From Trypanosoma brucei (lineage: Eukaryota), in contig CM000208.1 in the NCBI GenBank assembly GCA_000002445.1, positions 32,001 to 96,000 on the forward strand: DNA of 64,000 nucleotides. The letters run 5' to 3'. The position numbers and the translations under genes were made by a program. Each line of letters opens with the position of its first letter. The stretch's first letter is position 1. The notes under the pieces are model-generated. The model was given only the letters and a program-made list of their open reading frames with translations. It was not told the origin of the DNA and did not search any database. Positions 8,009 through 58,411 of the stretch are shown piece by piece.

Positions 8009-8067
8009 TTTTTTTTTTGGAATTTTCTTCGTGCCTTCGTGGGAGTTTCCCCCAACTGGCGCGGCCA

Positions 8068-9393: not shown

Positions 9394-9511
9394 GTGCGTT
9401 ACAGCACTCGAGCGGCATTGGTATGTGGCATCACATTCCGTACATTTGGTCGGTTCGGAGGTTCTCTGAAGAGTGCGTGTCGCAACAGTTGGGCTGTTTG
9501 TATTGTTGGTC

Positions 9512-10207: not shown

Positions 10208-11191
10208 TCATCGCGGTGGCTCCTTCCCCCTCCGTGCAAAATGCCGTGCAATCCACTTTTCGGAAGCCTCCCTTTTGACATCGTCAGGGTCATCAGCGCA
10301 CACAGGCTTTATCCGCGTGTGAAATAGCGGTCGGCAGCTGTGGCGGAGCGTCGATGTCTCTAGTGGGTGCTCGCGTGGCTCAATGCGGAGGTGGGGGTAA
10401 GACCGCATGATGCGGGAATGTATGGCTCTGACAGGGTGTTTGCTGTGGTATACTTCTTCAGCACTGCGCCGCAAACATCCGCCTTGCGACTCACACATCA
10501 GCATGAATTTCATGCTGCGCACAAGAGTGGCCGTCTTGAGTGGCAGGAGGTTTGCTTCCAGCAGAGAGTCCTCTTTGCGCGTCCCATGCGGTATGCCAGC
10601 TATGATGCGACTGGCTTTGTGTTGTGCTGATGCAAGGAGGTCGCGACTTCGTTCCGAAGCGTCCCAGTACCATACCTCAATGCCATACATGGTGTGTGCC
10701 TGTACGATTACTAGATAAAAAGCTCTCAGTACTTGTCGTCTTGGCCCCCATGTAGAAGCTGAGATGGCTGCTATCTGCAGTAGTCGGAAGTCCATCTTGC
10801 GTCTCGTTTCGGCCGCATGTGTTGCCATCCCATGCAGACGCTGGGATGTTACTCCTAGAAGCTTCGGTGTCCTGTCAGCTCCTATTCTTTCACCGTCCAG
10901 TTGTAATGTAAGGGGGTGGCGCTCTATACACCCGGAGAGTGTGCACTTCGTTTTCGCTACATTGACAGACATGAAGTACTCTTTTGACCACTGTAACACC
11001 ACGTTTAGGCCGCATTGCAGTGTGTGGTTGATGACATCCCTCTCTGTGTGCCTCGCAAGTAGCGTCAGGTCGTCTGCAAAGAATCCGTGCTGCAGTAACG
11101 GCACTTCTGCAAGGCGTTGGCTCAACGAGTTCATGACAATAATGAACATGATTGGGCCAAGGACAGTTTCCCTGTGGCACTCCTCGCTCAA
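10208..11191 (-). CDS. ingi ORF fragment: C-terminal part of the reverse transcriptase domain, in a different frame from the upstream fragment.
   Basis: 327-aa ORF with FFADDLTLLARH (YxDD-like RT motif context) and thumb-like region. It overlaps the end of the 822-aa fragment, which implies a frameshift. Confidence 0.7.
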   Translation of the reverse strand: MSEECHRETVLGPIMFIIVMNSLSQRLAEVPLLQHGFFADDLTLLARHTERDVINHTLQCGLNVVLQWSKEYFMSVNVAKTKCTLSGCIERHPLTLQLDGERIGADRTPKLLGVTSQRLHGMATHAAETRRKMDFRLLQIAAISASTWGPRRQVLRAFYLVIVQAHTMYGIEVWYWDASERSRDLLASAQHKASRIIAGIPHGTRKEDSLLEANLLPLKTATLVRSMKFMLMCESQGGCLRRSAEEVYHSKHPVRAIHSRIMRSYPHLRIEPREHPLETSTLRHSCRPLFHTRIKPVCADDPDDVKREASEKWIARHFARRGKEPPR

Positions 11192-13267: not shown

Positions 13268-13399
13268 TGCAAACATTGTATGTCACCCACCGCATTCCCC
13301 CCGTCAAATGTATCGCACAATCATGCAGAAGCTCTTCGCTGTCGAAGTAGAAAGACAAAGAGAACCGCTACCACCAGTCACCCTAACTTTCTCCCCCAT

Positions 13400-20748: not shown

Positions 20749-22178
20749 TCAGGCAGCGGGGCCACCAGCAATAGCGTTTGGTTCATCCTGGGTGATCTCC
20801 CTAACAATATCCTTTTCCATCTTCACTTGAAACTGGTTGATTCTATTCCACAACTCTGTAGTATGACCGCCTCTGCCCCCAACTGGTTCGCACCTCCGCC
20901 TCTCCTTGATTGCTCTGCTGTCACTGTACTGTATGTAAACCAGCTCCCATTTCAAGTTTCTTGCGAGCTCATCCCATTCACGAAACAATTGTTTCATTCC
21001 CTTGATAAACTTATCTACCTTCGTTCGTGCCAGGTGATGCGTCGGTGCCACTGTCGTCTGGAGCAGAACAATTGTTGTTGCGGTGATCGCCCTTCCTTCT
21101 GTATCAACAGCTGGCTCAGTCACAAAGAAAAAGGCGTCCACAACGGGGAAATTTCCCTGTACAGGTCGGTGAAGGCACCCGACCTCGATGTCTTGGCCTC
21201 TCGTTTCGGGGTAAATATGACGAAGTGAAGTTGGAACACGTCCCACGGCATTACCACTTGCCAGAACGGATACATGTAAATGCATATTTTCTCCAATGCG
21301 AGGGAAATACCGCAGGTGCGCCACAATCGTCTGCACAACATTTCTCATCGTGAAGGCATATATGCCCACATTTTCAAATTCATCAGCGGCATGCTCTGCT
21401 TTCCCACGAAAAAAATTCCGAAGGTAATTGTCTTGCATACATGCTTTGTCCACCCACACTCTCAATTTCTGCTCAATATAAACGGAAACAGCTCTGTTTC
21501 TGCATTCTTCTCCATTCTCAGTTACAACCCGGACCAACTTAGCTAACATGTATGTAGTCCCGTCATGGAGCTATTGAACTCGGCCATTCAGCACCTCCAT
21601 GCACTGTTCGGTATCGCGAGCAGCGATTTTTCTCAGTGCCCCTTTTACTTCTGTGATTTGGTCACGATAGCGTTTGTCACCTTCCAGTACTTGGCGGGCC
21701 AGTGGGCCCACCTTCTTAGCCCATCCTAATATTTTCTTCCATTCATTCTCAACTTTTATGATGTGAGTTTCGGTGATTTTACTTGCCTCCAACTTTGACA
21801 GCCGCCTCCACGCAACCGCAGCCTTCAGTTCCACCTCTTCATAGCAATTGATGCAAAGGAACTCGTAACCCCGTGGTTCCTTCCACTTTCTGTAGTTATT
21901 TGGATCTGGAGATGTCAAGACAATTACGGGCCACGTTTCCGGAAAGTCTGTTGGTCTTGGTATTTTTCTCTCTTTCGCCAGGTCGCAAATAATGTAACCA
22001 AGAAGCCATTCGTCAGCCAAGGCATTGACAGCATCCACTCCATCATTTTCCTCATAGAATACAACCCTTCCCGGGTGACCATTTGTCGCCCTGAAGAAAA
22101 TATACGCCCCACCCTTCACAAAACAAGCGATAATCCGCAGCAGCTCCGAATCGTAATGCAGCAACCTTTGGAGCAGGA
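20749..22178 (-). pseudogene. RHS: RHS pseudogene copy 2, C-terminal half (downstream of the RIME insertion). An internal stop/frameshift lies near 21550-21571.
   Basis: 21571..22230 ORF ILLQRLLHYDSELLRIIACFVKGGAYIFFRATNGHPGRVVFYEEND.. and 20749..21549 ORF ..FPVVDAFFFVTEPAVDTEGRAI..WELVYIQYSDSRAIKERRRCEP are collinear with RHS copy 1 but sit in two frames. Confidence 0.75.
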
Positions 22179-22674
22179 TTTTTTTTTTCTTCGTGCCTTC
22201 GTGGGAGTTTCCCCCAACTGCCGCGGCCATCAGCCATCACCGTAGAGCCCTGAGATGCTATCGGTCTGGCGACTGTGGCAGAGTCTCCCTTTTTTATTAA
22301 ACCTAACACACTCTCTATAATTTTTGTTGTAGTTCCGCAGTTGAACGGGACACAGCAGATGGGGCGAGAAGCCCCCCTCACCCCGGACTCTCCCAAAGAT
22401 GTCAATTGGCAATCCTTTTTTTGGAGTTCCACATCACCGGACAGCAGCATCTTAGTGCGGATGATACTGCTGATGGCACGCTGTCACGTGCCCAGGGACC
22501 GACAAATGAAAGACGGTGTCCCAGCAAGACGCTGCTGATCCCTGTGCTGTATGATGCCGTAGCCGGAGCACAGCAGTGTTCCCCATGAAAGGAATGCTGC
22601 TGGCTCTTGGCTTCCCCCGATGATACGGGGCACTGGACCCTGGCACCATGTTGAGGTGGCCGGCATCGCCAGGG
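22179..22674 (-). mobile_element. RIME: RIME (ribosomal mobile element; ingi half-A + half-B, ~496 bp incl. (A)10), inserted in RHS copy 2 with a perfect 12-bp target-site duplication tttggagcagga.
   Basis: Reverse complement of CCCTGGCGATGCCGGCCACCTCAACATGGTGCCAGGG..MLLSGDVELQKKDCQLTSL..GATGGCTGATGGCCGCGGCAGTTGGGGGAAACTCCCACGAAGGCACGAAG(A)10. The 12-mer tttggagcagga occurs at 22167-22178 and at 22675-22686. Confidence 0.85.
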
Positions 22675-23735
22675 TTTGGAGCAGGAACGAGCCAACACCA
22701 ACTGATTTCCCAATACCTGCAGTGCCGACGAGGACGCAAGGAATCTGTTTTTCGATCAGCCCTCACTCCAGCCACAAATCCAGCCTCTGCTTCACAAGAT
22801 ACCACACTCTCATTACCTCTCGACGAATGTGCACATCTCGGTCAAACACATGGACCTTTGGATTTTCCTCACCCTCTTGAATTACTCTTCGCGGAATGCG
22901 GAACCGGTTATATGGCCAACCCTTGTGCGAGGTGAGCACCGCAATCTCTAAATTACCACGTCGAGGAAGAGGTTCATTCATAGTTCCCGGGCCGTGGCTG
23001 ACATCCACCACTCTTTCCGTCCACAGCTCAGGTTCTCGACCACAATTTCTCACCACCTTCATCATAACCCGACATCACATAACTCCACGTCGCATTGTAT
23101 ATGGATTCATACACTCCTTTAAGTTCGGCACCACCAGCTGTTAGGGCAGCTCGTATCATTGCTTTTTTGACGGCCATCAATGCTGCATCCAGTTTTCTCC
23201 TCACTACGGGACCAACAAATTCCCTTATCTGAGTGGTTGCATTCTCTTCCCATTGTTGTATGTCTTCAATTCCATTACGAGGCAGATAAATAACCGCCCT
23301 CAGTAATTGAAACTCATCGATATCCTGTATTTCTCCAAGAATCCCTGTATCAACAATATAATCCTCCCGGATTCTTAACAAACACATTCAGGGCCACATT
23401 CTCTGTGTTGTACGTGTTCGAAAACTTTTGCATCAAAAATTCATGCAGTTTCATATCCTTCAAACCCGCATAGCGTTCCAGTAACACATCTTCCACGCTA
23501 CTTTCCAACACCCATTTGCGACAATTGGTTTCCTTCCCCGTAAAGTACAGTGGGACTGCAACGGAAGATATTCCGATGAGTACTCCAGAGAGGCAGAGTT
23601 ACGGTGAGAGGAGAAAAGAAATATGGTCTTGTACCATACCGTCTCAGGGATCCACAAAGTGGAAGTGCAAAACAGCGTTTGGAAAACATCATCAACAGAA
23701 TTGATAGCCTTAGACTTAAAAATAAATAAAAACAA
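22675..23735 (-). pseudogene. RHS: RHS pseudogene copy 2, N-terminal half including the P-loop (GTAGIGKS) just upstream of the insertion hot spot. It is spread over three frames.
   Basis: Translation of the minus strand next to the RIME gives ..LIEKQIPCVLVGTAGIGKSVGVGSFLLQT. Upstream ORFs 22763..23065, 23028..23387 and 23460..23735 are collinear but out of frame with each other. Confidence 0.6.
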
Positions 23736-26700
23736 GAGTTGTATAAGGTATAATAATAATATGATACTGCGTCGTCAAGTATCATTCGAAGAGATGCATG
23801 CACATGACTAGCCTTTGAAAGTCAACAACACAGTTTATCCACAGTGCTAATAGATTTCACTCACTGCACCAAGCAAAGATACAAACAGTTGAATCAAAGT
23901 AACAAGAACACATTATATATCATATCAATATAGGATTAAATGTGTAAGGGCATCCAACCACATACGCGATACGTAAATGTGATAGCAACCACTACACATA
24001 CCGTAACTAAACTGCTGCGCAAGAATATACTTTATTCTTAATGAATATCCAGTCTCATATGACAGTTACTCGACATACATGTAGACAATTTCTTTTAAAT
24101 AGAATCCACATATGATAAATGGATACAATCCCCTTGAACAGTGTTGGAGATGTATTAATGGTAACATGACTCAAAGGGAACGCAGTACAATAACGGTCCG
24201 CGTACTTTCCATAGGATTCACATATCATACCCAGTGTAATTATAATGAGATACAAATCACATACACCGACACACATATATTGAAGAACTTTAGTGGAAGA
24301 GTAACTCAATCACAAGTCACGATTAATCAAAACAGTAAACACAACATAAAATGCAGTAAAGAATGTGTGAGTAAAGGAAAATATACAAATTATCGGACAG
24401 CAACACACATATATATGAAATATGAGTAGAACAATTCATGTAAATATACAGCAAGATCAACAACAGCATAATCTACGGCATTACAACAATTGTTGTATTT
24501 TCATTGTCGGCTGAATGAAGTAACTAACTGCAGAAAAAAAACCCACATACACCTATGTTGCTGTGAGGAGCAGCTGTGATAAAGGTCTGGTGAGAACTGT
24601 TGCTCGATCACTTCTGCGCCCCACATGTGCAGGGTAATGTTGCTGCGGCTTTCTACTATTATTAATGCATTTGTTCTTACCTTCATACGTATCAGCAAGC
24701 TCTGGAATTTTAAAAGAACTGCGGGACATAAATGGTTTGTGGTTTCTCTTTGTCCAAAATTTTAATGATAGAAAATGAAAAATACTGTGAGTGATGTTAA
24801 ATACAAACAAAATTGCGTTACTCTCCTTGTTAATATCAACGGTACACAAGGACATACCCTGTTACTCTCATGACGATCCATGAAGTAAGAAAAGTGTCTT
24901 TCATTATAACAAAGCGGAAAGAAAACTGAAAAAGAGAGATAAGTTCCCAAATATTTCCCACATGTTCGCCTTTCTTCCTATAGAAGAGCAACTAACTGAA
25001 GCAACACATGAATTTCTAAAATAGAAGTATATACCTTTTTTCCAGTTGCAGCGTGAGTTTGCAGCACACACACTCACTCACCACCACCGACATGTTTTTA
25101 CGCGCTCTCTACGCTCACATTACACAACCAACTGAAAGCATTAATATTCAAAAAAGGAAGCCTATCACTATTGTATGAATTTTACGCCCTCTGATGATGC
25201 TGATGATAAGGATTAACCGAGGCAGATGTATTCCCAAGTCCCTTCCTCCACTCCGTTATTTAAGAAATTCCGATATTCTAAAATAACAAAACACAACAAA
25301 AAGGTGCAACAGTACCAACGTACGCACACCAGTCGAACACTCTCCTTTAGAAGACCATATGCACGCTCCCTCATACTTTCATTCTCTTGGAAAGTCATGT
25401 CCCATCTAGAAAAGCAAAAATAAAGAGAATCATTACTGATTAGATTAATCATGCAAGTAGTAATATCCGTCCAAATTCATTCATCAATGAAAGACAATAT
25501 CTGAAGTACAGCAGTGTAAGTGGATCGTGCAAACAAAAACAATTACCCATATTTTGCTCCGTCATTGAATCTTTGTGATAGAGAACGCCGATGGTAGAAT
25601 AAAGGAGACACTATTAATGTGATGGGGTTATGCATGCGCCACTCCGACTGTTCACAAATAAATGCAAATATCACAGTCTCAATATTTTCCAAATATACCC
25701 AACAAATAGGAAGCAAGTATTTTCTAGAATATGTGAAATACACGTCACCGCATCCACAATATAATAAGCGAAGATGAGACTCCATTTTCAAAAGCAAACA
25801 TACAATCATGACAATACCGAGCACCATTTCCCTCGTGTATCCAAAAGACTCTGATACATAAGAGAGCAATTCATAAAAGATGTTTAGAATAATATGGGGA
25901 AGTAGGAAATAATGATCGGTGCTTCTGGTACTCAGCCTAACAGAAATGAATATGATTGACGCAAATTATGTATTTTCTTTTTTTTTTAAGATGGAAAAGA
26001 TAAACTGAAATGGGAGCAAACATGCAGGATGGTAATTTTCCAACGGGTTGAAGCACAAGCTCTCTTTGTATCAACAGTTTGTGCTCAACATTTTTTACTC
26101 AGTGCACTTTTTTTTTTTTACGTGCATGCTTTAGTGAGACTTCATTCAATCATCCAGCTGAAACGCGGAACACTCCCAAGCCAATCATCCAACACTTCTC
26201 TGATGTGTTTTTTCTCCATTTCCTCTTGCCTAATTGCTAGAACTCAGCTTTCCGTGACTTCTGTTGGAAATACCACCTCATTCCTACTGTTTGAAACCGC
26301 AGTCACGTCACCAGAAAAAGAAATCTTTAGTTTTATTTCCAAGTCCCGCTATGACGTTTTCAGCTTAGGAAGGCGACTACCTCTTCTCCATCTGAATTCG
26401 CGTATTCTGTGCGGTAAGAATCTTGCACTTTGGCACCTAGTTATAAAAAAAAATCCATTTTTTAATCGGATGCTCGGTCAGTACATTCGGTTTCTAACAT
26501 AACAGATCCACTGCCACAGCCCCATGTATCTCTCACTCCACACTTTGGACCCTCGACGTTATGCAGCGCCGAAAGCGCTCGGGTCACTCCATCATCACAC
26601 AATCCCCCTGAAGAAGAGGACATCACAGGCGTTTCGTTTCCTCATTGACGGCATGACGGGTCTCGAGACCACATCGACGTGACCTGTGGAGTCAGAACTC

Positions 26701-28643
26701 AAAGAGGGTACGTTGAACTAATTCACCTTTTTTTTTTCTGTTATGGGCGGCTGTCTTTACAGAACTCTTATCGATCGACTTTACAATGCACTAGAAGAGA
26801 AAGTGTGTGCGGAATCACGTGTTTTGCTACTATGACGGTGGGTCAACCCTCAACAACAAATGCTTTTCGGGCCATGAAGTTCCATTGGCATGCAAATGCC
26901 TGCAGAGGTCTTGTTTGCCCTGTGGAAGCTTCGTGACCAAATAAATGTCACAGACTCCAGAGCCCACAAATGCGCACGTATTGCACCTGCTTATGCTACA
27001 CCACTTTTTCCATTTGACCCCATTACGAACTTCTTTCGTCCGCAAGCAAAAGTCTCATCCGTAAATGAAACCAAGCAACCGACGTAGCTACGCACCACAT
27101 CGTGGTGTGGTGTTGTCCTTTAACGCCTCCAGGAGCGGAAAGATGCCCCACCGCAGTTTTGCTCATGCACAAATACCCTTAGGCGACGATGCGGAGGGGA
27201 TCCCGGTTCTATTTCCACCATGAACTCGCACGGGACAGGTTGGTACTCCTGCATCTGTTGTTGTTAGCAGAGAGGATAACCTCCAGTCCGTTATGCCGGA
27301 CAAAGTTCGTCACCACTCTCCAGCCAAACGGTCCCCGCTCCGGCTTACTCAAAGATGACGATACAATGAGGAAAACCAACGGTGGTGGCGTGCCAGACTC
27401 TGGTGCGTGTCAACCTCCCGGTAGAAACCGGAGAAGAAGAGGGAGGAGAAGTGGCGGCGTGAAAGCCTCACTGCCAATACGTCAGAGGAAGCTAAACCGA
27501 CATTAGCGATGGTGTATTTTTCTAGAAGGGCGAAACCACTCTAAAGTGCGGGTTGCCTGCCATTGGTGTTGGAGCATCAAAACCGTTCTTCCTCTCACAT
27601 GGATCCTTTCTTGAGCATGGCAAGCCGAAGTCGTCGAGTGACCGCCTATGCGGCATCCGTCAACGACGCGCACATATATTTCGGCGAATCTCCCACATCC
27701 CTGTAATGGGACAGTTCGCACATATTTCTGCCTATTCCGCAGCAAATCCATGACCGAAGAAAGCATGATGGCTTTGATTGCGGCGAAACGTGTGGCTACG
27801 GTTGCGCGGTTGTAGTACACCAGCATGTTTACGGCAATGATGAAGTTGGATCAACGACTGTTGGACGTGATGATCTTGTGCCTACAGAAGATTGTGGCGA
27901 TAAGCGAGATCAAACACGCAAGTCCCTTGACAAAAGGTCGGAATGGCTCAGATTATTACTTTTCGTCCGGATTGGAAGGAGTGTGTGGTTTTTGCGTTTG
28001 GTGTGGATTACGACAAGTCGTCGGGTGGAGATCCCGGCACCGATACGGAAGCATTTCCAATGGAACAGGGACAGTGTAGCGCTCCTCGATTGGTTGGTGA
28101 CACCCAAGACAGCCAAGTCCAATTCACACCGAGCAGGTCGTTAAGTTCGCATTCGGGGATTAGGACGCTCTCGATATTACGCGACTACTCTCCACTATGA
28201 AGCTCAAGGAACGTATAACAACGCTCACAACAACCAAAGTCGAACGTATTCGGGCTTCATGGGAGATGATGACGCACCCCGTTAGAAGAAGGAGTTTTAC
28301 AGCATGCTACAGCCACAATTTGTGGAAGAGCACAGCATGGATCCTCACATTATTCCCCAACCGATTGAGCACATTTATCTGTTCCACTTGCCGAGGAACA
28401 CTGTCAGCCGCTTGGACAAATACACCGCCATGTTGACTAATATGTAGAATATCGTCTCTATGATGTAACCCATGTCTTAGATGAAGGATAAGAGCCATGG
28501 GAGCCGCCAGGGCGGTGTCCCTTCAAGACGCACGGTTACACGATAACAAGGAGGGCGCACGCCACACGCCTGTTGAATACTCAGGACAAGGCTTCCATTC
28601 CTTTACAGCAAGTGCACGTCCCACTGCTGGAGATATATTGAAT

Positions 28644-29142
28644 CCCTGGCGATGCCGGCCACCTCAACGTGGTGCCAGGGTCCAGTGCCCCGTATCATCG
28701 GGGAAAGCAAGAGCCAGCAGCATTCCTTTCATGGGGAACACTGCTGTGCTCCGGCTACGGCATCATACAGCAGAGGGATCAGCAGCGTCTTGCTGGGACA
28801 CCGTCTTTCATTTGTCGGTCCCTGGGCACGTGCCAGCGTGCCATCAGCAGTATCATCCGCACTAAGATGCTGCTGTCCGGTGATGTGGAACTCCAAAAAA
28901 GGATTGCCAATTGACATTTTTGGGAGAGTCCGGGGTGGGGGGCTTCTTGCCCCATCTGCTGTATTCCGTTCAACTGCGGAGCTACAACAAAAATTATAGA
29001 GAGTGTGTTAGGTTTAATAAAAAAGGGAGACTCTGCCACAGTCGCCAGACCGATAGCATCTCAGGGCTCTACGGTGATGGCTGATGGCCGCGGCAGTTGG
29101 GGGAAACTCCCACGAAGGCACGAAGAAAATTCCAAAAAAAAA
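28644..29142 (+). mobile_element. RIME: Intact RIME (~499 bp incl. (A)10 tail at 29134-29143) flanked by an 11-bp TSD atatattgaat (28633-28643 and 29143-29153), in a non-RHS context.
   Basis: Begins CCCTGGCGATGCCGGCCACCTCAACGTGGTGCCAGGGTCCAGTGCCCCGTATCATCGGGG. The half-A/half-B junction is ..ATGCTGCTGTCCGGTGATGTGGAACTCCAAAAAAGGATTGCCAATTGACATTTTTGGGAG. Ends ..GGGAAACTCCCACGAAGGCACGAAGAAAATTCC(A)10. The flanking direct repeat is identical on both sides. Confidence 0.9.
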
Positions 29143-30362
29143 ATATATTGAATCATTTCTCGCTTAAATTCGAGTGTGGAATGTAGATTTCAGCATCTCT
29201 GGGGACTGATCGGACTGAGACCAAAAGGGACCAGTGAAAGGAGCCCTCAGGTTATTTCCATCGGCGATGATCGTCTACTTTGGAAGGTCGGTATCGTAAA
29301 GGATGCCTCCTCCGTACCAACAGGAGCTCGGGTCATCCCTCTTCTCAATTGCAGAGGATAAACTCTCCAACGAGCGTCGCTGGTGAATTGCGGGGCCTCA
29401 AGAGAAATAACAAAAGCGGATAAGCCTTACGAGGCAATTGTTCCTTTTGGAACACATTTCAAAATACCTTCATGCGGTTACTATCCTGAGTTGTCGACTT
29501 TTTCTGTCTGTTTTTTTTTGTTTTTTCTTAGAGGCGTTACGTCGTCGTCTTTTGCCTCGTACAGAGAACTTGTCCCCGCCACAGAGGCCGCTTTGTTACC
29601 ACTGTCCGCACTTGGTTTAGTAAGTGGGTATTGCTTTTTTGCCTGTTTAAAAATAAGAAACGCACGGTTACATCCGATTGGGAACCCGCAGTTGATTTGG
29701 TCACAGATGGCTCTTTGAGGGGTTGTGGGTCTGGGGCATGTCCTCTTATTGGATTCCGGTGAGGTGAAAGTAATGTTATGTGCTCTCGTTGGTTTAACTT
29801 CCCTTTTCTTATCATGCAGGCTCAGGCCCGTGTCCTCCGACTCTTCTCAGTAGCATTCGTGGAATCCTTTCCCCCTGAGTATTGACATTTGGGTTGATAA
29901 TACATTCCTGTAAGGCGCGGAAACAAAAGGAAACACAAAAGCCTACGGTCTTTCCGTGGCCATGGATGAGATGTTTATGATATTTGATTCCCACAACATT
30001 AGCACAAATTACTCGTTTAACCGCTCCGTCACCAAACCGGCGGTCGGCTCCCGCGGAGGCACACGGTTTAACTGTGCAAAGTTGGTGAAAGAGTTTAACT
30101 TACAAAAGGAAGTGGCGGTGTCCCGAGGCTTTTGGGGACCACATGAACTGCCCTTTCACAAGTCTACAGTGAAATAAATATTCCGCTGCTGCTTCTCACC
30201 CAAGTATTCTCTAAGTGTGCATGGATGGTTATAGATTTTGTTTATAATTCCTTGACTCTCTCTCTCTCTCTTTAATCTTCTTCCATAGATTAAGGAATTG
30301 GACCGTCCCTAAGTTTATATTCTACTTTGTGTAGCCTGCCCTTGACTTCCTTTCCGTCTCTT

Positions 30363-30380
30363 GGGGGGGGGGGGGGGGGG
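30363..30380 (+). repeat. G18 homopolymer, preceded by a (CT)n microsatellite at 30256-30272.
   Basis: ttgggggggggggggggggggaag read directly; ctctctctctctctctc ~90 bp upstream. Confidence 0.9.
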
Positions 30381-32799
30381 AAGTTTATATTGTGTGTGGC
30401 TCCAACGTGTAAAAGTAAAAGTCAGATACCCTGAAAATATTTCTCCTCGGCCCCCCCAGCAGCAAACAGACATCTCCGAGCTGCAGGGGTCTGACGTTAG
30501 CGGTGTTCTTACTTTTTGTTACGTGTCTCGAAAGCTCTTTGTGCGGATGCACAGTTGCCTCCAACGCTTTTCCGTTCCCATCCCCTAATAAGCGTTTGCT
30601 ACCCGCCTTAGGGGTTAGAGGTTCCTTAAGCAGGAGCCCTCCAAACAAAAAATATATTTAGTTTTCTTCGCGTCCAGTTGCATAAAGTTTTTTCGGCCTT
30701 ACGCTGCTATAGTACCTAGTTCTCTGTGCAAAATTTTTTCGAGTTGCAGTCTTTGCGTGCCTGTGCACGTCATCGTTCCGTAATCTGTGAGGCCACAGGG
30801 TTGGGGGCTGGGGTTTGTGTCGTACTGACTGCTAAGAAGGGGTTTCACGACAGTTGTAAATAAAAAGGATCCGACTACTTTGCCTCGTGTCGCTTTGCTT
30901 GGTAAGGGTTCCGGCTTCAATAACGCTTTCTTTAGTCGAAATGTTTACAGCATCCAGTGAGGAAGGGAAACTCTCCGGCGTCTGAGTTATATTTATCTAC
31001 TAAACTTCCACACTTCACTCACATTCCTCTCATGACCCACACTTTCAAGTTTTTTTTTTGGTGTAAAAGGCAAATGAAGAAACGGTTCGAGCAACATTAC
31101 CACCGCGGGGCAGTGCTGTGCGGATATGCTGCAACTCATAGGGCGCCAAAGCGCTCGGGCGAAGCGACATTGACCGCTCATTGGCCGGCGCTTTTCTGTG
31201 TTTGTGACTTTTGTTCCCTCGATCCGTTGCTTTGTCATCGATATTGTGCCAGTAAACTCTAGTGAGTGAAGCGAGACGATGTCGGTGGTACGTCCACTAA
31301 CTTTTAGAAATGTTGCAATGGTTATCCGACTTTTTCACCTAACTACTGCTGTTGTGTGTCGTGGACTTTGGTTCAAATTTCAGCGTGCCCTTTAGCCAAC
31401 ATATCGATGATTTAGTTCTCAGAAGTAAGCATCACTCTCCCGCCACCGTTTCGCGTGATGATTCTCCTATCAACTTTTGTCATTTCAGTGTTTGTATATC
31501 GTTTGAGAGAGTGTGTGGGGTTTGTGATGCTGTGAATGTTCATCCTTGCGGCTGTCATAGTATTCATGGAACAATTCACATACATATCCTCAGAATTCCA
31601 CGGCCTCTGTTTCCTTTTCTTGTGGCGGGTTCCTCTTCCGTTATTAGGGAAGGAATCTATAATAATGGTGCTGTGAATAATTCTTTCAATAAGGTACGAA
31701 GTTTTTCTTTGTCTCATCTATTAGCAGTTTTGAGGTGTATCTTCCAGCATGTCCTCACAGCTGTTATATTCAGCACCCTCCTTTATGTGATGAATGAGGA
31801 ACAACATTTTCTTCCTATGAATTGTTTTTTGGTACTGTCTAATCCACTACAGATGCAATGGCGTCATTGGTGTTTTCAACTGCCATCAACACGTGTTTTT
31901 ACCTATTTGCCGAGTTCGGGCACACAATGTTTTGGTAAATTTGGACAATCCACAATTTTGTTCGTGTCCCTTGATACTGCTACATTGAGTAATATCCAAC
32001 TGCAATAACCGCTAAAGTTTCGCATCGCTTTCCAAGATGTAACATCGCTGTGCGTAAAACAGGTAACTTCTATTGAAAGCAGTGCGCCTCCGAATGCTGT
32101 ATATCAAATTGGAGCTTCATTGTTGGTAACTGTTAAACTCTTCTCCAGCTATCAATTCAATGTCAGCTTCATCACCCTTCCCCTCTGGAATACGTGGGGC
32201 TGAGGAACGTAGCACCGCTTCACGTCAGCTCCGGTGGCTACTGAATCTTGATCCCCGCTTCTAATTCCTACAACCTTTACACGTTTACATTAGAGTTATT
32301 GGGAAAGCAGGCAAATGCCACACCAAGCTGTCCATCGTTTTCAGGCGCCAGCGTAACGGTTATGATTTCCAAAACCACAATTATTTTTTGGAGCGTTAGT
32401 TACTCATATCCCGTTTCCAATGAGTATTGATACGTTTTTGTTCTTCATTTTACAGCAAGAGAACGCTGTGTATTGGTAATGGAAGCAAGCGTTCATTCTG
32501 CCTTCCCCAACATTCGTCAGTGTCTCCAAAAGAAGGCGAAAGATCGCCACGTAGTTTTTTGTTGTTTCCGATATATGTGGCCCCTTTCCGCCGGCGAGAT
32601 CTTACGTACTCCACTGAGACCTGTGGAAAATATGGGGTGGACACCTGCTGACACCGGCCCCGGGGAGGCGGGGGATTCAGTTAACGCACGGGGCGGGTCA
32701 GCATCAGTGCCTCTGAAGGGTACACACGGAAGGAGAATGTGTACTTATGTGATGCGGTGGCCGCTCATTCTAACCGTCGTATGTTAAGGTTCAATATTG

Positions 32800-35700
32800 A
32801 GCCGCTGCCACGATGCGGGTGATAGCCCATAGCTTTCTTTTGGGTGGTGCACCGGGTCCCGGAATCGCTCTCTCGTGGCTCGCGTGGTCGCAATGCAGCT
32901 CGGATTTTGTGAGTGAACATCTTTTCCGCCTCTGTGGGACTTTGGTGGAGGTTGGTGGCGGAAGTTTTGGTGCTGCTGGTTTTGCCGTACACCCGGTTTG
33001 GTGTAGTCTTCCCCCTTTGCTGCGGTTTTTAGCCGTTTGGTCTGAAAGTGCATGGTCTTTTTACAAAGTGATTTGCTGGGTTGGGCACTGATGCGTTGCC
33101 TATTGTGGTCTCGCGTGCCTTAGGAAATGTTTTCGCTGGTGCTTTTGCTGTTGTATCACCCTGCTTTCAAGTCATTTGTTACATGTGTCGGGGTATGTTT
33201 GGTGCGTTACAAATGGTAGTGGTTAGTGTACGGCTATTGGCTGTTAGGCATATTGAAGGGTGTAGCATTAACATTTCGTAATGACTTTTTTCCCGTGTCG
33301 TGAGGGAAGTTGGTGGGAGTTGCAGTACTTTGCAGTGGCTACATAGGCTACCCGATTTTTTTTATTTAGTAAGTCTTGTAGTGCACACCTCCACCGCTAG
33401 ATCTTTGATGACAACAGATGCGCCTTCCCTTTTGAGTTGTGGGGACCACCCAGTGTTGTGGCAGGTGGGGGTGAAAGCGTGGAACTAATTGAATTTCGGG
33501 GTGAGGATTTGGTCTCACGGAAGAAATGGGAGGTTGACGACACCCTAACAACGATGTCGCTAACATCTGCTTCTCCTGGGTGAAGGGGTCCGGCGGGCTT
33601 CCACCTTGGGTTTTGGACGTCGCCACCGTACTGCACTTCGCTGCGAGAAATTTAACTAACATTAGGCTTATACCCCACCAGAGGCCCACAAGAGGTAATT
33701 CGTCACATGTCGCAAAGCTAATACACCTACCATCATAATCTGAGGCCGTAACCGTTGTATTTCCGTTCCGGCACTGCCAAAACAGGTTGCAATATCTTGG
33801 GTTCTTACATAAGAAGTCAACCGGTGATGACATTAGTTCGTTAGGTTGGTGAGCGATGCCGTGAGCCACTATGCATTTACATTAGCACAACTTCCGTTTA
33901 ATTGGTGGTGCCATTTTCGCATATCGAAACTCGAGCGCTGATACTTCCCGCGTGGCATTGCGTGGTTGGCGGCAGTAAGTTCTTGTTTTTCTTTTGCATG
34001 TTTACCTGGGCCCGAGCGATCTCTTTTTCTGTTAGATGTTTCGAAACCTTGGTTCATTTTACTTGTGCAAACGTAAATAGGTAGCATATTCGTTCCTTTC
34101 GTCTTTTAGAAATAGTTACTTTAGGGACACTCGAGTCGCTTTGCTGTGATTGCCAGCTGCGGCTGATTTTTTAAAATTATTCTTCCAACAGTGTTTGTAA
34201 TAGCATTGCTATTGTTTAGCTTTGGCGAGGGATATATTAAATATTTTTTGTGGGACATTATTTTTGTTGTGTGCTGCTGGTGGCGCATACTGAAGAGCCG
34301 TGGGCAAATCAAGTGCTTCTCGAGACATCCATATCCCACTGCTTTTGTGACTGCTTTTCTTCTTTATCTTTTTTGGATGTCTATGTTTTTTTACTTTAGT
34401 CTACAGGTGTATTTTTAAGTGATGGTGTAGATACTACCTATTTCGTACTGTGAGTCTCTGCTACTTTGTGCCGGGAATAGTTGTACAGTTTCTCACTTCC
34501 TTTTTACTTTTTTTTTGCAGCGGTTTTGAATAATTGTTTTGACACTGGTTGCTATGACATATTGTTCACGATGCATCCTTAAAAGTTTTGCGAGGTTAAG
34601 AAAATAAATTTATTGGCCGGATGTTTATATGTTTTCGGCAATATAATTTGTACTATTATTTTTGGTGCCTTTCTTCCCTTGTTTTGTTAACACTTTTACA
34701 TATATATATTTTTCATACTTAGATTGCGGTACGAGGTGCTCTTCGTACCATTACTTTTTTTCGCCCTTGTTTCCGGACCGAAAGGCACCTCTGCTAGTAG
34801 AATGATCGAACTTTTTATGTTATGCTTGTTATCTAAGTTACCTGCTTCAGGTGGGTTACTGTCCCTCTCGTGCCATTGTTGGATGATTGCAGATTGTTTT
34901 GAAGTATTTTTTTTGTTTATCGTTACTCACTTTTTTGTTGGATGTTTTGAAACTAGTTGTTATCCCGTTACGTTGTACACACTTTCCCTCCTCCCTGGTC
35001 GTGTACTGTCACTTTCTCTCTAAACATGGTTTTTGTGTATATGGCACTGGCTCCTTTGGACTGGGTCTTTTCATTACCCCTTATAAAAGAAAAATATACT
35101 TTATATATCTAATGTTTTTGTTTTGTGTTGCTCATTTTTTTTTTCTGGTGAACGTTTCACCGAATGTTGTTTTTGTACAACCGGCTACTGTGCATTGTTT
35201 GCGCCGTTAGTCGTTTTTAAGCTGTGAAGGGGAAGATGCTCACGTAATAGCAAAAATGAACTCGATGTTTTCCTCCCATATTTGAGCTCCGTACTTCACG
35301 AGCAGGGCACCAGATTGCGTGTGTGTACACTTTCTGCCATGTATTGCGCACACATTTGGTATGCGAACTTCAAGCTGTTGGGAGTGACTGCATTTGGCTT
35401 CTTTCCCCCTTTGTACTGTGTTATAAAAAAAAAAAATAAAATATCGTTTGCTACAACGGTGCCCCAACAATGTGGTTTGAGGTATGGGAATGGCATTTTA
35501 GGACCCTGCCTGTATTATTGTGTTTTCTTAAAACACATTTTCGTACGCGTTGGTGTTTGGTAGTTGCACATGTACCGCTTACTTCTTTTAAGTTTAATTC
35601 TCATTCCATGTTGTTCATACATTTGTCCCGGTGCAAGCGAGTGACAACAACAGTTGAGTACTTAAGTACCCCATTTCCGTCATGTATGGAAACCAAGGTC
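32800..35700 (+). promoter_or_regulatory. Extended GT-rich (G+T skewed) tract on the plus strand immediately upstream of the first gene of the plus-strand array. Candidate RNA pol II transcription start region / GT-rich promoter.
   Basis: Visible strand asymmetry, e.g. ggtggcggaagttttggtgctgctggttttgccg.., gtgcttttgctgttgt.., gtttgtaatagcattgctattgtttagctttggcgagg.., with very few A/C runs on this strand for ~3 kb. It ends where coding starts at 35786. Confidence 0.3.
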
Positions 35701-35785
35701 TTGTGCTATGTTCTATTTAGTAACAAGCCATCATGTTTTACAACGCGATTATATATATTACTATATTTTCTCTTTTAGTCACCGA

Positions 35786-36310
35786 ATGAGCACTAGTGAA
35801 CGGCGTCGCTATGGGTTTCAGCGTACCTCCAAAGAGATAAGAAATGAAAGGAAGCTTAACAAGATGCAAAAATGGAGTGAAAAGCTAGACAGCTGTGATG
35901 TCGTTAAATTGCGCACGGAGCTACGTTCCATGGAGAAAGCCGACTTCCTGCTCCCTCGTCAGAAAGAACGAAAGACACTGATAGAAAGAATGATACGAGA
36001 TGCTGAGCTAAGGAAGTGTGTTGAGGGTACCGCTCCCATTTCATGTGAACAGCGACCCAATGAAGATACCCAAGACAATTCGAGCTGCTCCAGTAGATGT
36101 GACGATATTATCCTTAGTCCCCGTCTGGGTGTAGGGGATGGTGTTGTGGTTACGACGCCAGATCACTTCATTCCGAGATCATTGAGAAAAAGGTGTGGTG
36201 GGAACAACAGTCAGGAGGGTCTAAAGAAACGGGTGAAGAGGGCAGAAGAGCACTTGATTGCTAACAATTCGTTGGAGGAAGATATTGATGATTTTTTTGA
36301 TTCTCTCTAG
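35786..36310 (+). CDS. Hypothetical protein (174 aa, charged/basic), first gene of the plus-strand array.
   Basis: ATG at 35786 within the 35708 ORF, preceded by a pyrimidine tract (ctatattttctcttttag). No recognisable domain. Confidence 0.45.
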   Translation: MSTSERRRYGFQRTSKEIRNERKLNKMQKWSEKLDSCDVVKLRTELRSMEKADFLLPRQKERKTLIERMIRDAELRKCVEGTAPISCEQRPNEDTQDNSSCSSRCDDIILSPRLGVGDGVVVTTPDHFIPRSLRKRCGGNNSQEGLKKRVKRAEEHLIANNSLEEDIDDFFDSL

Positions 36311-36494
36311 TTGGTGTGAATCTAACTTTGCTCCGCTCTTGCTTGCCTGGGTCTCTGTGGACTGCTGCCAACCGAGTTCACAGAGCTCCGTCATCGTTAT
36401 TTTGTCGTATGCCAGAATTCGACTTTCTCTGGATGGTATATTGCGGTCACCCTATTATACTACTGGGAAAAGGGGGATTACACTATACCTATTT

Positions 36495-37622
36495 ATGGCT
36501 TTAGTTCGTAGGATAGGATCATCCCTGCTATCTCACAAGGAGTACAGCCGTTTCCTTGATAACAGAAAGTGGCTTGAAGGTGCCCTTGAGGGGTTTTCGA
36601 TTGAGAATGTTTTAGGTATTTCTCAATTGTCTTCTCGACCCTCTGTTTTAATGTATGGGTCGTGTGTTTCTGGAACGGCTTTTAGCAATGCAGATGCTGA
36701 TTACGCAGTGTTATTTCTCACGCAAGGGAATACTGAGGAGTCGTCAATGGCTAACATGCTGAACTATACGCATTCAAAATTTATTGAAGTGAAACGAGAG
36801 CATCATCAGAGGGTTCTCTTGGCAATTTTGGAGCATATCAGGGTATCTTTCTGTTCGACGGTGCTGAAGTGCGAGCAAATTTACTCGGCTCGTGTTCCTT
36901 TTATTCGGCTTTTCAAGAGTAGTGCGAATAACACAGAGGGAAGTCACTTGGATGTGTCTCTTTCTTTTGATGGTCCCAGAAATTCTTTGTTGCTTAGGCT
37001 TTACATGGAGGGGGACCCACGCCTTAGGTGCGGCGTTCTTTGTGCGAAGAAATGGTGCCGCTCTCAAGGTATTCTTGATGCTCGTCGAGGTTGGATTTCT
37101 GCATACGCCCTCACTGTCATGTATATATTTTACATGCAGGTGACGAAGAGAGCAGTGCGTATTATTGATGAAAGTGAAGTCAACAATATTCTGTATTGTA
37201 TGTCGAAGCAAATGTTGGAGGGGGTCAATGAATGCTTTCCTTTTGTTGGAGATGTATGTTCTTGTAGTGACGTTGACATACAGAATGTTTTAAGTGATTT
37301 ACATGGCTTTTTTCATTTCTTTGGGGGCTCAATGTGTTTTGATTTTGATACTGATGTCGTTGACATTAGGAAAAATGACAAACTTGTTTCGAAAGAATCT
37401 TGGTTGGAGGGAATCAATCATTTTGATGAGAAGACTCGTTGGAATCTCCTGGGTTACGAAACTATTATGATCCGTGACCCATACGAAGACCACAATTTAG
37501 GTCGTAGTGTGGATTTCTTTCGCGGCGAGAGAATCAGAGAGGTTTTTCGTTTGGCGTCGGAGACCAAGATTGAGGATGTTTTAAACGAGTTAGCAAAACA
37601 AGGAAGGCTTTCTAGTGTTTGA
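36495..37622 (+). CDS. Cid1-family nucleotidyltransferase (terminal uridylyltransferase / non-canonical poly(A) polymerase-like), ~375 aa.
   Basis: Pol-beta NTase motif YGSCVSGTAFSNADADYAVLF (hG[GS]x9-13DhD). PAP/TUTase nucleotide-recognition motif ..CAKKWCRSQGILDARRGWISAYALTVMYIFYMQV. Start ATG 36495 was chosen as the first ATG downstream of the previous gene, and an earlier in-frame start overlaps the upstream CDS. Confidence 0.7.
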   Translation: MALVRRIGSSLLSHKEYSRFLDNRKWLEGALEGFSIENVLGISQLSSRPSVLMYGSCVSGTAFSNADADYAVLFLTQGNTEESSMANMLNYTHSKFIEVKREHHQRVLLAILEHIRVSFCSTVLKCEQIYSARVPFIRLFKSSANNTEGSHLDVSLSFDGPRNSLLLRLYMEGDPRLRCGVLCAKKWCRSQGILDARRGWISAYALTVMYIFYMQVTKRAVRIIDESEVNNILYCMSKQMLEGVNECFPFVGDVCSCSDVDIQNVLSDLHGFFHFFGGSMCFDFDTDVVDIRKNDKLVSKESWLEGINHFDEKTRWNLLGYETIMIRDPYEDHNLGRSVDFFRGERIREVFRLASETKIEDVLNELAKQGRLSSV

Positions 37623-49254: not shown

Positions 49255-49557
49255 TATCTCCACCAAAAGACAAATATCCATAAACATGCGCACATCTATA
49301 GATGACGTTTTTTTTTCCCCCTTTTGAGCGAGGATTGTTACACTTCCTGTGTGACTTGCATGAGGCAGGTGTGGTAGCAGGTGTGTCTTTTTTTTTTTGA
49401 TTTCGGTTTATATATATATATATATATATATTATTTTTTTTTTTGCTGCTTGATGGAAATTCATGCTCAAGTTACCACTGCAGTGAAAAAGAGTATCACT
49501 TTTCTTATTTTATTTTTTTTCCTCTTTGACCAGTTTTCAGCTGTGGAGGTAGCAGGG

Positions 49558-49791
49558 ATGGTCACTCAAACTGAAATGGAGGAACGGATTCGCGTGTCTT
49601 TGGAACCGGAGTCGTGTGATGTGGTTGTGTTAAGTGAGGAAGACCGGAAGTATGGTGTGGTCATTGTTTCCAGAAAGTTCAACGATGTTCCACTGGTAAA
49701 AAGACACCGTATGGTAAATGACCTTTTTAAGGATGAGTTGTTGTCCGGTGAAATTCATGCCTTAACAATAACGGCGAAGCCATTACCGTAG
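49558..49791 (+). CDS. BolA-like protein (~77 aa).
   Basis: MVTQTEMEERIRVSLEPESCDVVVLSEEDRKYGVVIVSRKFNDVPLVKRHRMVNDLFKDELLSGEIHALTITAKP follows the BolA pattern (..H..V....F.......HAL.I.T). The upstream part of the 49381 ORF is the translated (TA)n/T-rich tract. Confidence 0.65.
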   Translation: MVTQTEMEERIRVSLEPESCDVVVLSEEDRKYGVVIVSRKFNDVPLVKRHRMVNDLFKDELLSGEIHALTITAKPLP

Positions 49792-53914: not shown

Positions 53915-54581
53915 AATGCAAACCAATGAAGGGGAGAATATAAAGATTCCGGAGTGGTTAGCGGAAGTAGCAGTAGTGCAAGAAAAGCGATAATATTGGA
54001 ATGTGTAATACGTATTTGGATAAAGCTCAAGAGACCTTGCATCATCTACTATTCGAATGATAGGGTTCCCGTACTTTTTGTTGGCAGCTCAGCAATGGCG
54101 ACGATCTACGTTCAAAACGCTTCACCGTATGACAGTTGCTTTATGGCAGAAAGTTGCTGTTTACTCAATGAAATCGTCCGCAAGGTGATGACATTGTTGT
54201 GATGGACGCGCCAGTAAGAGTAGGAAAACAAAAGAGAAAATGCGTTTTTGTAAAAATGGCGTACGCAACCGGCGAGATAAGGGTGTAATCACTTTAAATT
54301 TGCTTCCTTCTATCTACAGTAACGTTGTGCCCGTAATGCGGGACCAGTCATCTGCCTCTCCTCAGCGTTACAGTTAAGCATTTTCGCGGGTTAGGACGGT
54401 CATTTTTTGTTTTTTTTCACTGTTTCCGTGGATCCTTCATTGTGCCGCATTGTTAGTGCGCGTACACACTCGCCCCCCCCTCCGACACACATGCCTGTGC
54501 ATGTGTTCCAGTTCCCAAGGATCATTATCATTGTTTTTATTTGTTTTGTTTGCACTTAAGGTATCATTTTGGGTATATAGG

Positions 54582-58373: not shown

Positions 58374-58375
<2 letters not shown>

Positions 58376-58409
<34 letters not shown>
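58376..58409. repeat. (TA)n microsatellite. Other (TA)n/(AT)n runs at 5922-5946, 42321-42338, 49409-49431 and 58847-58869; (TG)n at 57262-57276; (CA)n at 1569-1583.
   Basis: Direct reading of dinucleotide runs. Confidence 0.9.

Positions 58410-58411
<2 letters not shown>

What the first reader, a model, noticed from the sequence alone, without database searches (positions are those of the whole stretch)
32800..35700. 3-kb GT-rich tract directly upstream of the first array gene: candidate GT-rich pol II promoter
Over ~3 kb the plus strand is strongly G+T skewed (runs such as ggtttggtgtagtcttccccctttgctgcggttttt, gtgcttttgctgttgtatcaccctgctttc, ttgctattgtttagctttggcgagg). GT-rich elements have been reported to drive pol II initiation and H2A.Z deposition in African trypanosomes (established knowledge). 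The position, just upstream of the first plus-strand CDS (35786), is exactly where such an element is expected.
Basis: partly seen in the sequence, partly recalled or inferred. Interest (0 to 1): 0.55.

Follow-up and report, generated by a model that had tools for sequence, protein, structure and literature searches.

The report
Known trypanosome transcription-start region, mostly transcribed
The T-rich tract lies at the published start of the first housekeeping gene cluster on Trypanosoma brucei chromosome 10, but about 80% of it is already transcribed and processed RNA, and only its first ~630 bases look like a real GT-rich promoter element, so it is an ordinary, already described feature.

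Summary
The window is T. brucei TREU927 chromosome 10, bases 32001-96000 (window = chromosome coordinate - 32000). This rests on exact matches to published gene, splice-site and poly(A)-site coordinates.

The G+T excess is real. The tract has G+T 0.599, against 0.512 for the window and 0.549 for intergenic DNA of the same gene cluster. It opens the top-scoring GT-rich segment of the 64 kb.

The tract is composite, and the excess is mostly T:
- Only 32738-33369 is enriched in both G and T (0.657).
- 33370-35700 does not differ significantly from ordinary intergenic DNA.
- Published promoter-associated 10-mers are no denser here than in ordinary intergenic DNA (6.55 vs 6.49 per kb).

Kolev et al. 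2010 list the first gene (Tb10.100.0045) as the first ORF of a divergent Pol II transcription unit, so initiation does occur upstream of it. They also map three spliced-leader-capped, polyadenylated non-coding transcripts inside the tract (33370-34256, 34395-35021, 35211-35663). Most of the tract therefore lies downstream of the first splice acceptor.

A G18 run, the commonest start-region hallmark, lies 2.4 kb upstream of the tract at 30363.

Verdict: observation partly confirmed, interpretation partly supported, feature already known, low interest.

The parts
32738..33369 (+). G+T-rich block, with G and T both enriched, directly upstream of the first mapped splice acceptor. Best candidate for a natural GT-rich promoter element or sense initiation zone.
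   Evidence: G .299, T .358, A .153, C .190; G+T .657. It holds the most GT-rich 210-nt window of the 64 kb (from 32943.71). GC skew turns positive here, +.17 to +.25. It is richer in G than intergenic bins, but with only 3 bins (p about .015-.02).
33370..34256 (+). Tb10.NT.1, a spliced-leader-capped, polyadenylated novel transcript (1.49 RNAs per cell) with no long ORF.
   Evidence: Kolev 2010 Table S7 gives 65370-66256 on Tb927_10_v4. The 5' end follows gattttttttatttAG in the window, and the longest ATG ORF is 28 aa.
34395..35021 (+). Tb10.NT.2, a novel SL/poly(A) transcript (0.27 per cell), very T-rich (T .437, G .187).
   Evidence: Kolev Table S7 gives 66395-67021. A polyY tract at 34351-34374 has its next AG placing a 5' end at 34400. 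The longest ATG ORF is 73 aa.
35211..35663 (+). Tb10.NT.3, a novel SL/poly(A) transcript (0.43 per cell).
   Evidence: Kolev Table S7 gives 67211-67663. The 5' end follows an AG at 35209-35210, and the longest ATG ORF is 74 aa.
35593..36415 (+). mRNA of Tb10.100.0045, the first protein-coding gene of the unit. The annotated ORF is 35708-36310 and the likely true CDS is 35786-36310.
   Evidence: Kolev Table S1 gives ORF 67708-68310, 5'-most SL site 67593 and poly(A) site 68415, and lists the start codon as misannotated. An AG sits at 35591-35592, and a polyY+AG lies at 35777-35778, just before the ATG at 35786.
30363..30380 (+). G18 run on the coding strand, with (CT)8 at 30256-30271.
   Evidence: GGGGGGGGGG is by far the most enriched coding-strand 10-mer in the first fifth of start regions, 132 vs 17 (Wedel Dataset EV1).
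29146..32737 (+). Unique spacer with no GC skew (G = C = .228) but T over A. It has no mapped processed transcript and no recognisable coding relic.
   Evidence: Composition is, fine-scale skews and Pfam screens. Tb10.NT.1 is the first novel transcript listed on chromosome 10.
28641..29145 (+). RIME retroposon in + orientation, with its poly(A) tail at 29134-29143.
   Evidence: Inverted repeats with the RIME at 22185-22683 and with both ends of the ingi element at 8007-13269, 95-98% complementary. A10 run at 29134.
23633..25878 (-). Mirror-image skew: GT-rich on the - strand (.576), upstream of the - strand RHS pseudogene. This is the other arm of the divergent strand-switch region.
   Evidence: Maximal-segment scan and skews.
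20749..23598 (-). RHS pseudogene interrupted by a RIME (22185-22683). It is the first gene on the opposite strand.
   Evidence: Pfam RHSP hits at 20749-21549 and 21571-22230. DUF7578 hit at 23353-23598. Repeats.

Best explanation
The tract is the gene-proximal part of the + strand arm of a divergent Pol II transcription start region. It lies at the boundary between subtelomere-like DNA (RHS, ingi/RIME, VSG pseudogene) and the housekeeping core of T. brucei TREU927 chromosome 10. It is not one 3-kb promoter but two different things.

(1) A ~630-bp block (32738-33369) is enriched in both G and T on the coding strand and ends at the first splice acceptor of the unit. This is the most likely natural GT-rich element. 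By analogy with Wedel 2017, such DNA favours directional, dispersed Pol II initiation and H2A.Z deposition.

(2) From 33370 to 35663 the DNA is already being transcribed. It is cut by trans-splicing and polyadenylation into three low-abundance transcripts without long ORFs. Its T-richness is that of polypyrimidine tracts and U-rich processing sequence, and it is statistically like other intergenic DNA of the cluster.

Shown: the genomic identity, the composition, the processed transcripts, and the gene-level assignment as a unit start. Inferred: that initiation concentrates in or just upstream of the GT block, and that the block acts as a promoter.
For: Identity and offset: published coordinates of six ORFs fit window ORFs exactly after subtracting 32000. 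Three come directly from Table S1 (Tb10.100.0045.0150.0190). For three more (.0060.0070.0080) the ORF ends are derived from the predominant poly(A) site minus the 3' UTR length. Three of four published 5' ends directly follow an AG.

Unit start: Kolev Table S14 and the method text.

Processed transcripts inside the tract: Kolev Table S7. The paper's text says novel transcripts carry both SL and poly(A).

Composite composition.

The GT block holds the window's most GT-rich 210-nt stretch (.71, against .79 for the synthetic active GT_210 element).

GC skew turns positive at 32.75 kb. The opposite arm shows a mirror skew.

Start regions are 5-10 kb wide, and every 1.8-kb fragment of two tested regions had promoter activity, highest at the 5' end.

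No coding relic, tRNA, Rfam family or repeat explains the tract.
Against: No H2A.Z, Pol II or base-resolution 5'-triphosphate data for this locus could be consulted; Kolev's table resolves only to the gene.

Wedel's 10-mers are no denser in the tract (6.55/kb) or in the GT block (4.75/kb) than in ordinary intergenic DNA (6.49/kb).

The hallmark G run lies 2.4 kb upstream, and T over A skew already begins at ~29.5 kb. Wedel places most initiation at the 5' end of the H2A.Z domain, so the main start sites may be upstream of the tract.

The GT block's G-richness rests on only three 190-bp bins.
Confidence: 0.62

Rival explanations
1. The skew is a passive by-product. The T (and local G) excess reflects transcription-associated mutation bias plus splice and poly(A) signals on a long non-coding stretch. 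Real initiation is set elsewhere: at the 5' end of the H2A.Z domain near the RIME and G18 (29.1-31 kb), or by a short sequence-specific core promoter of the Cordon-Obras 2022 type.
For: 33370-35700 is not distinguishable from ordinary intergenic DNA. The 10-mer density equals background. The G18 run and the onset of T over A skew lie upstream of the tract. Wedel locates initiation at the 5' end of start regions. Six RIME-derived 10-mers from Wedel's first-fifth list occur in the + oriented RIME at 29054-29122, which hints that such RIMEs lie in the first fifth of some start regions.
Against: A long transcribed non-coding stretch of the same cluster, the 2.6-kb PUF 3' UTR at 56259-58857, has no T excess (TA skew -.04, G+T .516), so transcription alone does not give this composition. 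Strong polyY+AG sites at 29498-29531 and 30248-30288 have no reported spliced transcript, and the first is at 33370. That argues for little sense transcription upstream of ~32 kb. GC skew starts only at 32.75 kb.
Confidence: 0.28
2. The tract exists to encode functional RNAs: Tb10.NT.1-3 are regulatory long non-coding RNAs or small-protein mRNAs, and the composition reflects their function.
For: All three are processed like mRNAs and were detected in procyclic cells. ATG ORFs of 73 and 74 aa exist in NT.2 and NT.3.
Against: Abundance is low, 0.27-1.49 RNAs per cell. No open frame of 55 codons or more in the tract hit Pfam. The transcripts are absent from Kolev's tables of novel transcripts with homologues or peptides and from the table of putative non-coding transcripts (occurrences only in Table S7). 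No paper in the library mentions them.
Confidence: 0.07
3. The tract is a decayed relic of a gene or mobile element left at the subtelomere-core junction.
For: It borders RHS, RIME, ingi and VSG-pseudogene DNA. A neutral, GC-richer sub-block at 33331-33980 carries a 167-aa - strand ORF.
Against: There are no Pfam hits for any open frame in 23600-35785. There is no repeat shared with the rest of the window and no internal repeat family. There are no tRNA or Rfam hits.
Confidence: 0.03

Closest known systems
GT-rich dispersed Pol II promoters / transcription start regions of T. brucei (Wedel, Forstner, Derr & Siegel 2017, PMC5579346)
   Same: It lies at the 5' end of a polycistronic unit, with G+T excess on the coding strand and a strong strand bias of the published 10-mers (19 on + vs 4 on -). 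A 630-bp block approaches the composition of the active synthetic element (.66-.71 vs .79).
   Different: Most of the tract is T-rich only and equals ordinary intergenic DNA. The 10-mer density is not above background. The tract has no G run. Chromatin marks and promoter activity were not tested. Start regions are 5-10 kb wide, and this one probably starts upstream of the tract.
Divergent strand-switch-region Pol II start sites mapped by 5'-triphosphate RNA-seq (Kolev et al. 2010, PMC2936537)
   Same: This very locus is listed: the first chromosome 10 unit starts with Tb10.100.0045, on the + strand, type 'Divergent'. Low-abundance transcripts are present near the start.
   Different: The listing is by first ORF only, with no coordinates for the start sites. 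No partner - strand unit is listed; that side is RHS/VSG/ingi DNA.
Ordinary trans-splicing and polyadenylation intergenic regions (polypyrimidine tract plus AG)
   Same: Mapped 5' ends at 33370, 35211 and 35593 follow polyY+AG. T content and skews of 33370-35700 match other intergenic DNA of the cluster.
   Different: It is unusually long (2.3 kb with three successive non-coding transcripts) and is preceded by a G-rich block not seen in the other intergenic regions.
Sequence-specific Pol II core promoters in strand-switch regions (Cordon-Obras et al. 2022, Cell Rep 38:110221)
   Same: The genomic setting is the same: a divergent strand-switch region with directional initiation.
   Different: The paper is not held in the library, so its motifs could not be searched. 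No claim is made either way.

Membership tests
GT-rich dispersed Pol II promoter / transcription start region (Wedel 2017) | Lies at the 5' end of a Pol II polycistronic unit where primary (5'-triphosphate) transcripts are enriched | tested here: met
   Kolev 2010 Table S14 names Tb10.100.0045 (annotated ORF at window 35708-36310) as the first ORF of a 'Divergent' unit. Resolution is to the gene only.
GT-rich dispersed Pol II promoter / transcription start region (Wedel 2017) | Enrichment of H2A.Z/H2B.V (and H4K10ac, H3K4me3) over 5-10 kb | not testable with these tools
   No ChIP-seq tracks are available. Siegel 2009 is not held and the Staneva 2021 supplement gives no start-region coordinates for this site.
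GT-rich dispersed Pol II promoter / transcription start region (Wedel 2017) | G+T excess on the coding strand relative to the non-coding strand | tested here: met
   G+T is .599. The tract opens the top-scoring GT segment of the window, which 0 of 300 block shuffles reach.
   For the whole tract p=.007-.037. For 33370-35700 alone the difference is not significant (p=.06-.20). For 32738-33369 it is significant, but on 3 bins only.
GT-rich dispersed Pol II promoter / transcription start region (Wedel 2017) | Enrichment of the published coding-strand 10-mers (Dataset EV1) | tested here: not met
   Density is 6.55/kb in the tract against 6.49/kb in pooled intergenic DNA. The strand bias of 19:4 is present but is also seen in intergenic DNA.
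GT-rich dispersed Pol II promoter / transcription start region (Wedel 2017) | Long G runs on the coding strand (the most enriched 10-mer of the first fifth of start regions) | tested here: not met
   The tract has no G run of 7 or more. A G18 run lies at 30363, 2.4 kb upstream of the tract.
GT-rich dispersed Pol II promoter / transcription start region (Wedel 2017) | Lies upstream of, or at, the sites where transcripts begin | tested here: inconclusive
   Only 32738-33369 precedes the first mapped splice acceptor. 33370-35663 is inside three processed transcripts. Dispersed initiation inside the region is not excluded.
GT-rich dispersed Pol II promoter / transcription start region (Wedel 2017) | Orientation-dependent promoter activity and H2A.Z deposition when moved to a silent site | not testable with these tools
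   This needs an experiment.
Sequence-specific Pol II core promoter (Cordon-Obras 2022) | Presence of the defined short core-promoter sequence | not tested
   The paper is not held, and the citing papers read give no motif.
Ordinary trans-splicing/polyadenylation intergenic DNA | Polypyrimidine tract plus AG at mapped spliced-leader addition sites, with T-rich composition like other intergenic DNA | tested here: met
   3 of 4 published 5' ends follow an AG. PolyY tracts are listed. Composition of 33370-35700 is not different from intergenic DNA.

The most novel reading that the evidence does not exclude
The ~630-bp G+T block at 32738-33369 is a discrete natural GT-rich core promoter. On its own it would fix the start and direction of the first housekeeping polycistron of chromosome 10, and it might act as the boundary separating core chromatin from the RHS/VSG/ingi subtelomere-like DNA. 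The three short non-coding transcripts downstream would then be promoter-proximal products with a role in keeping the region open.
Probability: 0.15. Interest if true: 0.4.

Novelty: already known. Interest (0 to 1): 0.12.

Why it matters
It matters little beyond annotation. GT-rich start regions in T. brucei were described in 2017. This locus was listed as a Pol II unit start in 2010, and the transcripts inside the tract were catalogued in the same paper.

The useful outcome is a sharper map. A short, testable fragment (32738-33369) replaces a vague 3-kb tract. The result also gives a caution: G+T content, or the published 10-mers, do not separate start regions from ordinary T-rich intergenic DNA.

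Tried and rejected
- Comparative analysis. A homology search with the first gene's product found a single 99%-identical protein on a 2-kb Logan contig with only 64 bases upstream. The collections evidently lack trypanosome genomes, so conservation of the tract could not be tested.
- tRNA and Rfam scans of the window found nothing.
- Pfam scan of all 100 stop-to-stop frames of 55 codons or more in 23294-36307. The only real hit was DUF7578 at 23353-23598 (-), which belongs to the RHS pseudogene. One other frame, not identified by position, gave a marginal MSL2-CXC match (E=0.002), read as chance. The tract's largest open frame (33369-33881, - strand) was also scanned separately, and nothing was found.
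- Repeat searches found no motif family or tandem array in the tract.
- Literature for direct marks. Cordon-Obras 2022 and Siegel 2009 are not held. The Staneva 2021 supplement has no start-region coordinates for this site. No paper mentions Tb10.NT.1-3 or Tb10.100.0045.
- G-quadruplex motifs. The only three-tetrad motif is the G18 run outside the tract. Two-tetrad motifs cluster at 32-34 kb, but this was not pursued.
- The idea that the tract is a gene relic or an unannotated coding gene was rejected for lack of any supporting hit.
Full report
**Where the window comes from**

Pfam scans show two halves. The left half carries subtelomere-type DNA on the - strand:
- RHS genes or pseudogenes at 6669-8078 and 20749-22230;
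- an ingi-type retroelement with endonuclease, reverse transcriptase and RNase H at about 8.0-13.3 kb;
- VSG pseudogene pieces at 16.5-18 kb.

The right half is a + strand housekeeping cluster. It holds a mitochondrial poly(A) polymerase-like gene, CBF5, ATP synthase gamma, RPS6, V-ATPase c, GAA1, a proteasome alpha subunit and PEX14. Tb927.10.160 is KPAP2, a putative mitochondrial poly(A) polymerase of T. brucei, which fits the poly(A) polymerase-like gene.

Supplementary tables of Kolev et al. 2010 (PMC2936537) fix the position:
- Tb10.100.0045 ORF 67708-68310, Tb10.100.0150 81453-81791 and Tb10.100.0190 86501-88258 equal window ORFs 35708-36310, 49453-49791 and 54501-56258 after subtracting 32000.
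- The published poly(A) sites and 3' UTR lengths of Tb10.100.0060.0070 and .0080 give ORF ends at window 39231, 40397 and 41415, as observed.
- Three of four published 5' ends near the tract fall directly after an AG preceded by pyrimidines.

The window is therefore Tb927_10_v4 bases 32001-96000.

The quoted runs are present. The tract 32800-35700 has G+T .599. The window has .512, the + strand cluster .534 and pooled intergenic DNA of that cluster .549.

A maximal-segment scan puts the strongest GT-rich segment of the 64 kb at 32738-37582, with score 336 against 114 for the next best. None of 300 block shuffles reaches it.

The description needs correcting, however.
- GC skew of the tract (.085) equals that of the rest of the cluster (.089), so the excess is T over A.
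- The tract is a mosaic. 32800-33330 is rich in both G and T (G+T .663). 33331-33980 is neutral. 33981-35250 is T-rich but G-poor (T .428, G .198). 35251-35785 is neutral.
- In 190-bp bins the whole tract exceeds intergenic DNA in G+T (p=.007, or .037 without one atypical 3' UTR), but not in G content or GC skew.
- 33370-35700 alone is not significantly different from ordinary intergenic DNA.

**Anatomy of the surroundings**

Between the last - strand gene and the first + strand CDS lie 12 kb without a long ORF. The layout is as follows:
- An RHS pseudogene runs to about 23600 and is interrupted by a RIME at 22185-22683.
- 23633-25878 is GT-rich on the - strand, a mirror image of the tract.
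- A second RIME in + orientation lies at 28641-29145.
- 29146-32737 is unique DNA with no GC skew. It contains (CT)8 at 30256 and a G18 run at 30363.
- The G+T block follows at 32738-33369, and the T-rich remainder extends to the first CDS.

No open frame of 55 codons or more between 23600 and 35785 gave a convincing Pfam match. No tRNA or Rfam family is present, and there is no repeat family inside the tract.

**Published experimental evidence for this exact locus**

[quoted passage not shown] It gives Tb10.100.0045 to Tb10.70.7140, + strand, type 'Divergent', as the first unit of chromosome 10. Initiation upstream of the first gene is therefore documented at gene resolution.

Table S7 of the same paper lists three novel transcripts on the + strand inside the tract:
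- Tb10.NT.1, 65370-66256 (window 33370-34256), 1.49 RNAs per cell;
- Tb10.NT.2, 66395-67021 (window 34395-35021), 0.27 per cell;
- Tb10.NT.3, 67211-67663 (window 35211-35663), 0.43 per cell.

The text states that novel transcripts carry both a spliced leader and a poly(A) tail. Their longest ATG ORFs are 28, 73 and 74 aa.

The 5'-most spliced-leader site of the first gene is at window 35593. Its annotated start codon is flagged as misannotated, which fits the ATG at 35786.

Only 32738-33369 lies upstream of the first splice acceptor, which is gattttttttatttAG ending at 33369.

**Test against the published definition of GT-rich promoters**

Wedel et al. 2017 defined the elements as 10-mers at least sixfold more frequent on the coding strand of 199 start regions. 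These are most numerous in the first fifth of each region and are dominated by G runs and T runs with G. Synthetic concatenates of them drove directional transcription and H2A.Z deposition. Start regions are about 5-10 kb wide, initiation peaks at their 5' end, and all 1.8-kb fragments of two regions had some activity.

Scoring the window with the 157 usable 10-mers gave these results:
- The tract has 19 hits on + and 4 on -, or 6.55 per kb.
- Pooled intergenic DNA of the cluster has 6.49 per kb, and CDS has 0.99.

The 10-mers therefore do not distinguish the tract from ordinary intergenic DNA.

The tract has no G run of 7 or more. The only one nearby is the G18 at 30363.

The synthetic GT_210 element has G+T .79. 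The best natural 210-nt stretch of the whole window (.71) starts at 32943, inside the G+T block.

**Where does transcription most likely begin?**

Two lines of inference point to slightly different places. Pointing to 29-30.5 kb, upstream of the tract:
- the G18 run;
- the onset of T over A skew just after the RIME at about 29.5 kb;
- the presence in that + oriented RIME of six 10-mers from Wedel's first-fifth list.

Pointing to about 32-33.4 kb:
- GC skew turns positive only at 32.75 kb.
- The first spliced transcript starts at 33370.
- Good polyY+AG sites at 29498-29531 and 30248-30288 have no reported transcript, which suggests little sense transcription that far upstream.

I favour a start region spanning roughly 29.5-36 kb, with sense initiation concentrated in or just upstream of the G+T block. 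This step is inferred, not shown.

**Mechanism and rivals**

Best explanation (0.62).
- a short natural GT-rich promoter element (32738-33369);
- 2.3 kb of transcribed, processed, non-coding leader DNA. Its T-richness is that of splice and poly(A) signals.

Main rival (0.28). The skew is passive, and initiation is set upstream or by a short sequence-specific core promoter. One observation argues against pure passivity. The 2.6-kb PUF 3' UTR (56259-58857) is also transcribed non-coding DNA in the same unit, and it has no T excess.

Minor rivals are functional non-coding RNAs or small ORFs (0.07) and a decayed gene or element (0.03). Neither has positive support.

**Comparison with what is known, and novelty**

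The feature behaves like a published T. brucei transcription start region, and it is one. Three things are already in the literature:
- the locus is listed as a Pol II unit start;
- the transcripts inside the tract are catalogued;
- the GT-rich property of start regions is described.

Membership in the 'GT-rich promoter' class holds for position and strand skew. It fails for 10-mer enrichment and G runs within the tract. It is untestable here for chromatin marks and activity.

The finding is already known and of low interest. Its practical value is a narrowed, testable 630-bp candidate. It also shows that T-richness alone does not mark a promoter in this genome.

**What could not be done**

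No trypanosome genomes or ChIP-seq tracks were reachable, so conservation and chromatin marks are untested. The Cordon-Obras 2022 motifs could not be searched.

Noticed in passing
window 29054-29131 (RIME at 28641-29145); also 22226-22260 and 22485-22494 on the - strand: Several 10-mers in Wedel 2017 Dataset EV1 are RIME/ingi sequence rather than GT-rich motifs: TAGCATCTCA, GGTGATGGCT, GTGATGGCTG, GGCTGATGGC, CGAAGAAAAT, GAAGAAAATT and TGGGCACGTG. Each occurs 6-7 times in the first fifth of start regions on the coding strand. At least six start regions therefore appear to carry a sense-oriented RIME/ingi end near their 5' border. This could bias the published motif list, or it could reflect an insertion preference.
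   Followed up: partly
window 30256-30380: A (CT)8 repeat is followed 90 bp later by an uninterrupted G18 run on the + strand. This is the only three-tetrad G-quadruplex motif on that strand in the 64 kb.
   Followed up: partly
window 36258-36495: The longest ORF of the KPAP2-like gene (ATG at 36288) overlaps the end of the upstream CDS (36310) and its mapped poly(A) site (36415). The next in-frame ATG, at 36495, is a more plausible start codon. The same 444-aa call was made on a Logan contig.
   Followed up: no
window 8007-13269, 14313-14514 and 6669-8078: A full-length ingi element (5.26 kb, - strand) has its coding region split into several ORFs. It is inserted next to an RHS gene, and a further inverted partial RIME/ingi end lies 1 kb beyond it. 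This is a typical retrotransposon hot-spot arrangement.
   Followed up: partly
window 56259-58911: There is an unusually long 3' UTR for the pumilio gene Tb10.100.0190 (about 2.65 kb; poly(A) site 90911 in Kolev Table S1). It has an A-rich stretch (G+T .38 at 56.5 kb), C9 and G9 runs and several (TA)n tracts. Its composition is opposite to that of the tract.
   Followed up: no
window 23633-25878: A mirror-image skew (GT-rich on the - strand, .576) lies upstream of the RHS pseudogene, but with no G runs and few Wedel 10-mers on that strand. Kolev lists no - strand unit here. This arm of the divergent region may be a weak or silent promoter.
   Followed up: partly
window 32000-34000: Two-tetrad G-quadruplex motifs on the + strand cluster at 32-34 kb (13 and 8 overlapping starts per kb, against 0-5 in most neighbouring kilobases; 30-31 kb, with 14, is the exception). 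They coincide with the G+T block, and none occurs on the - strand there.
   Followed up: no
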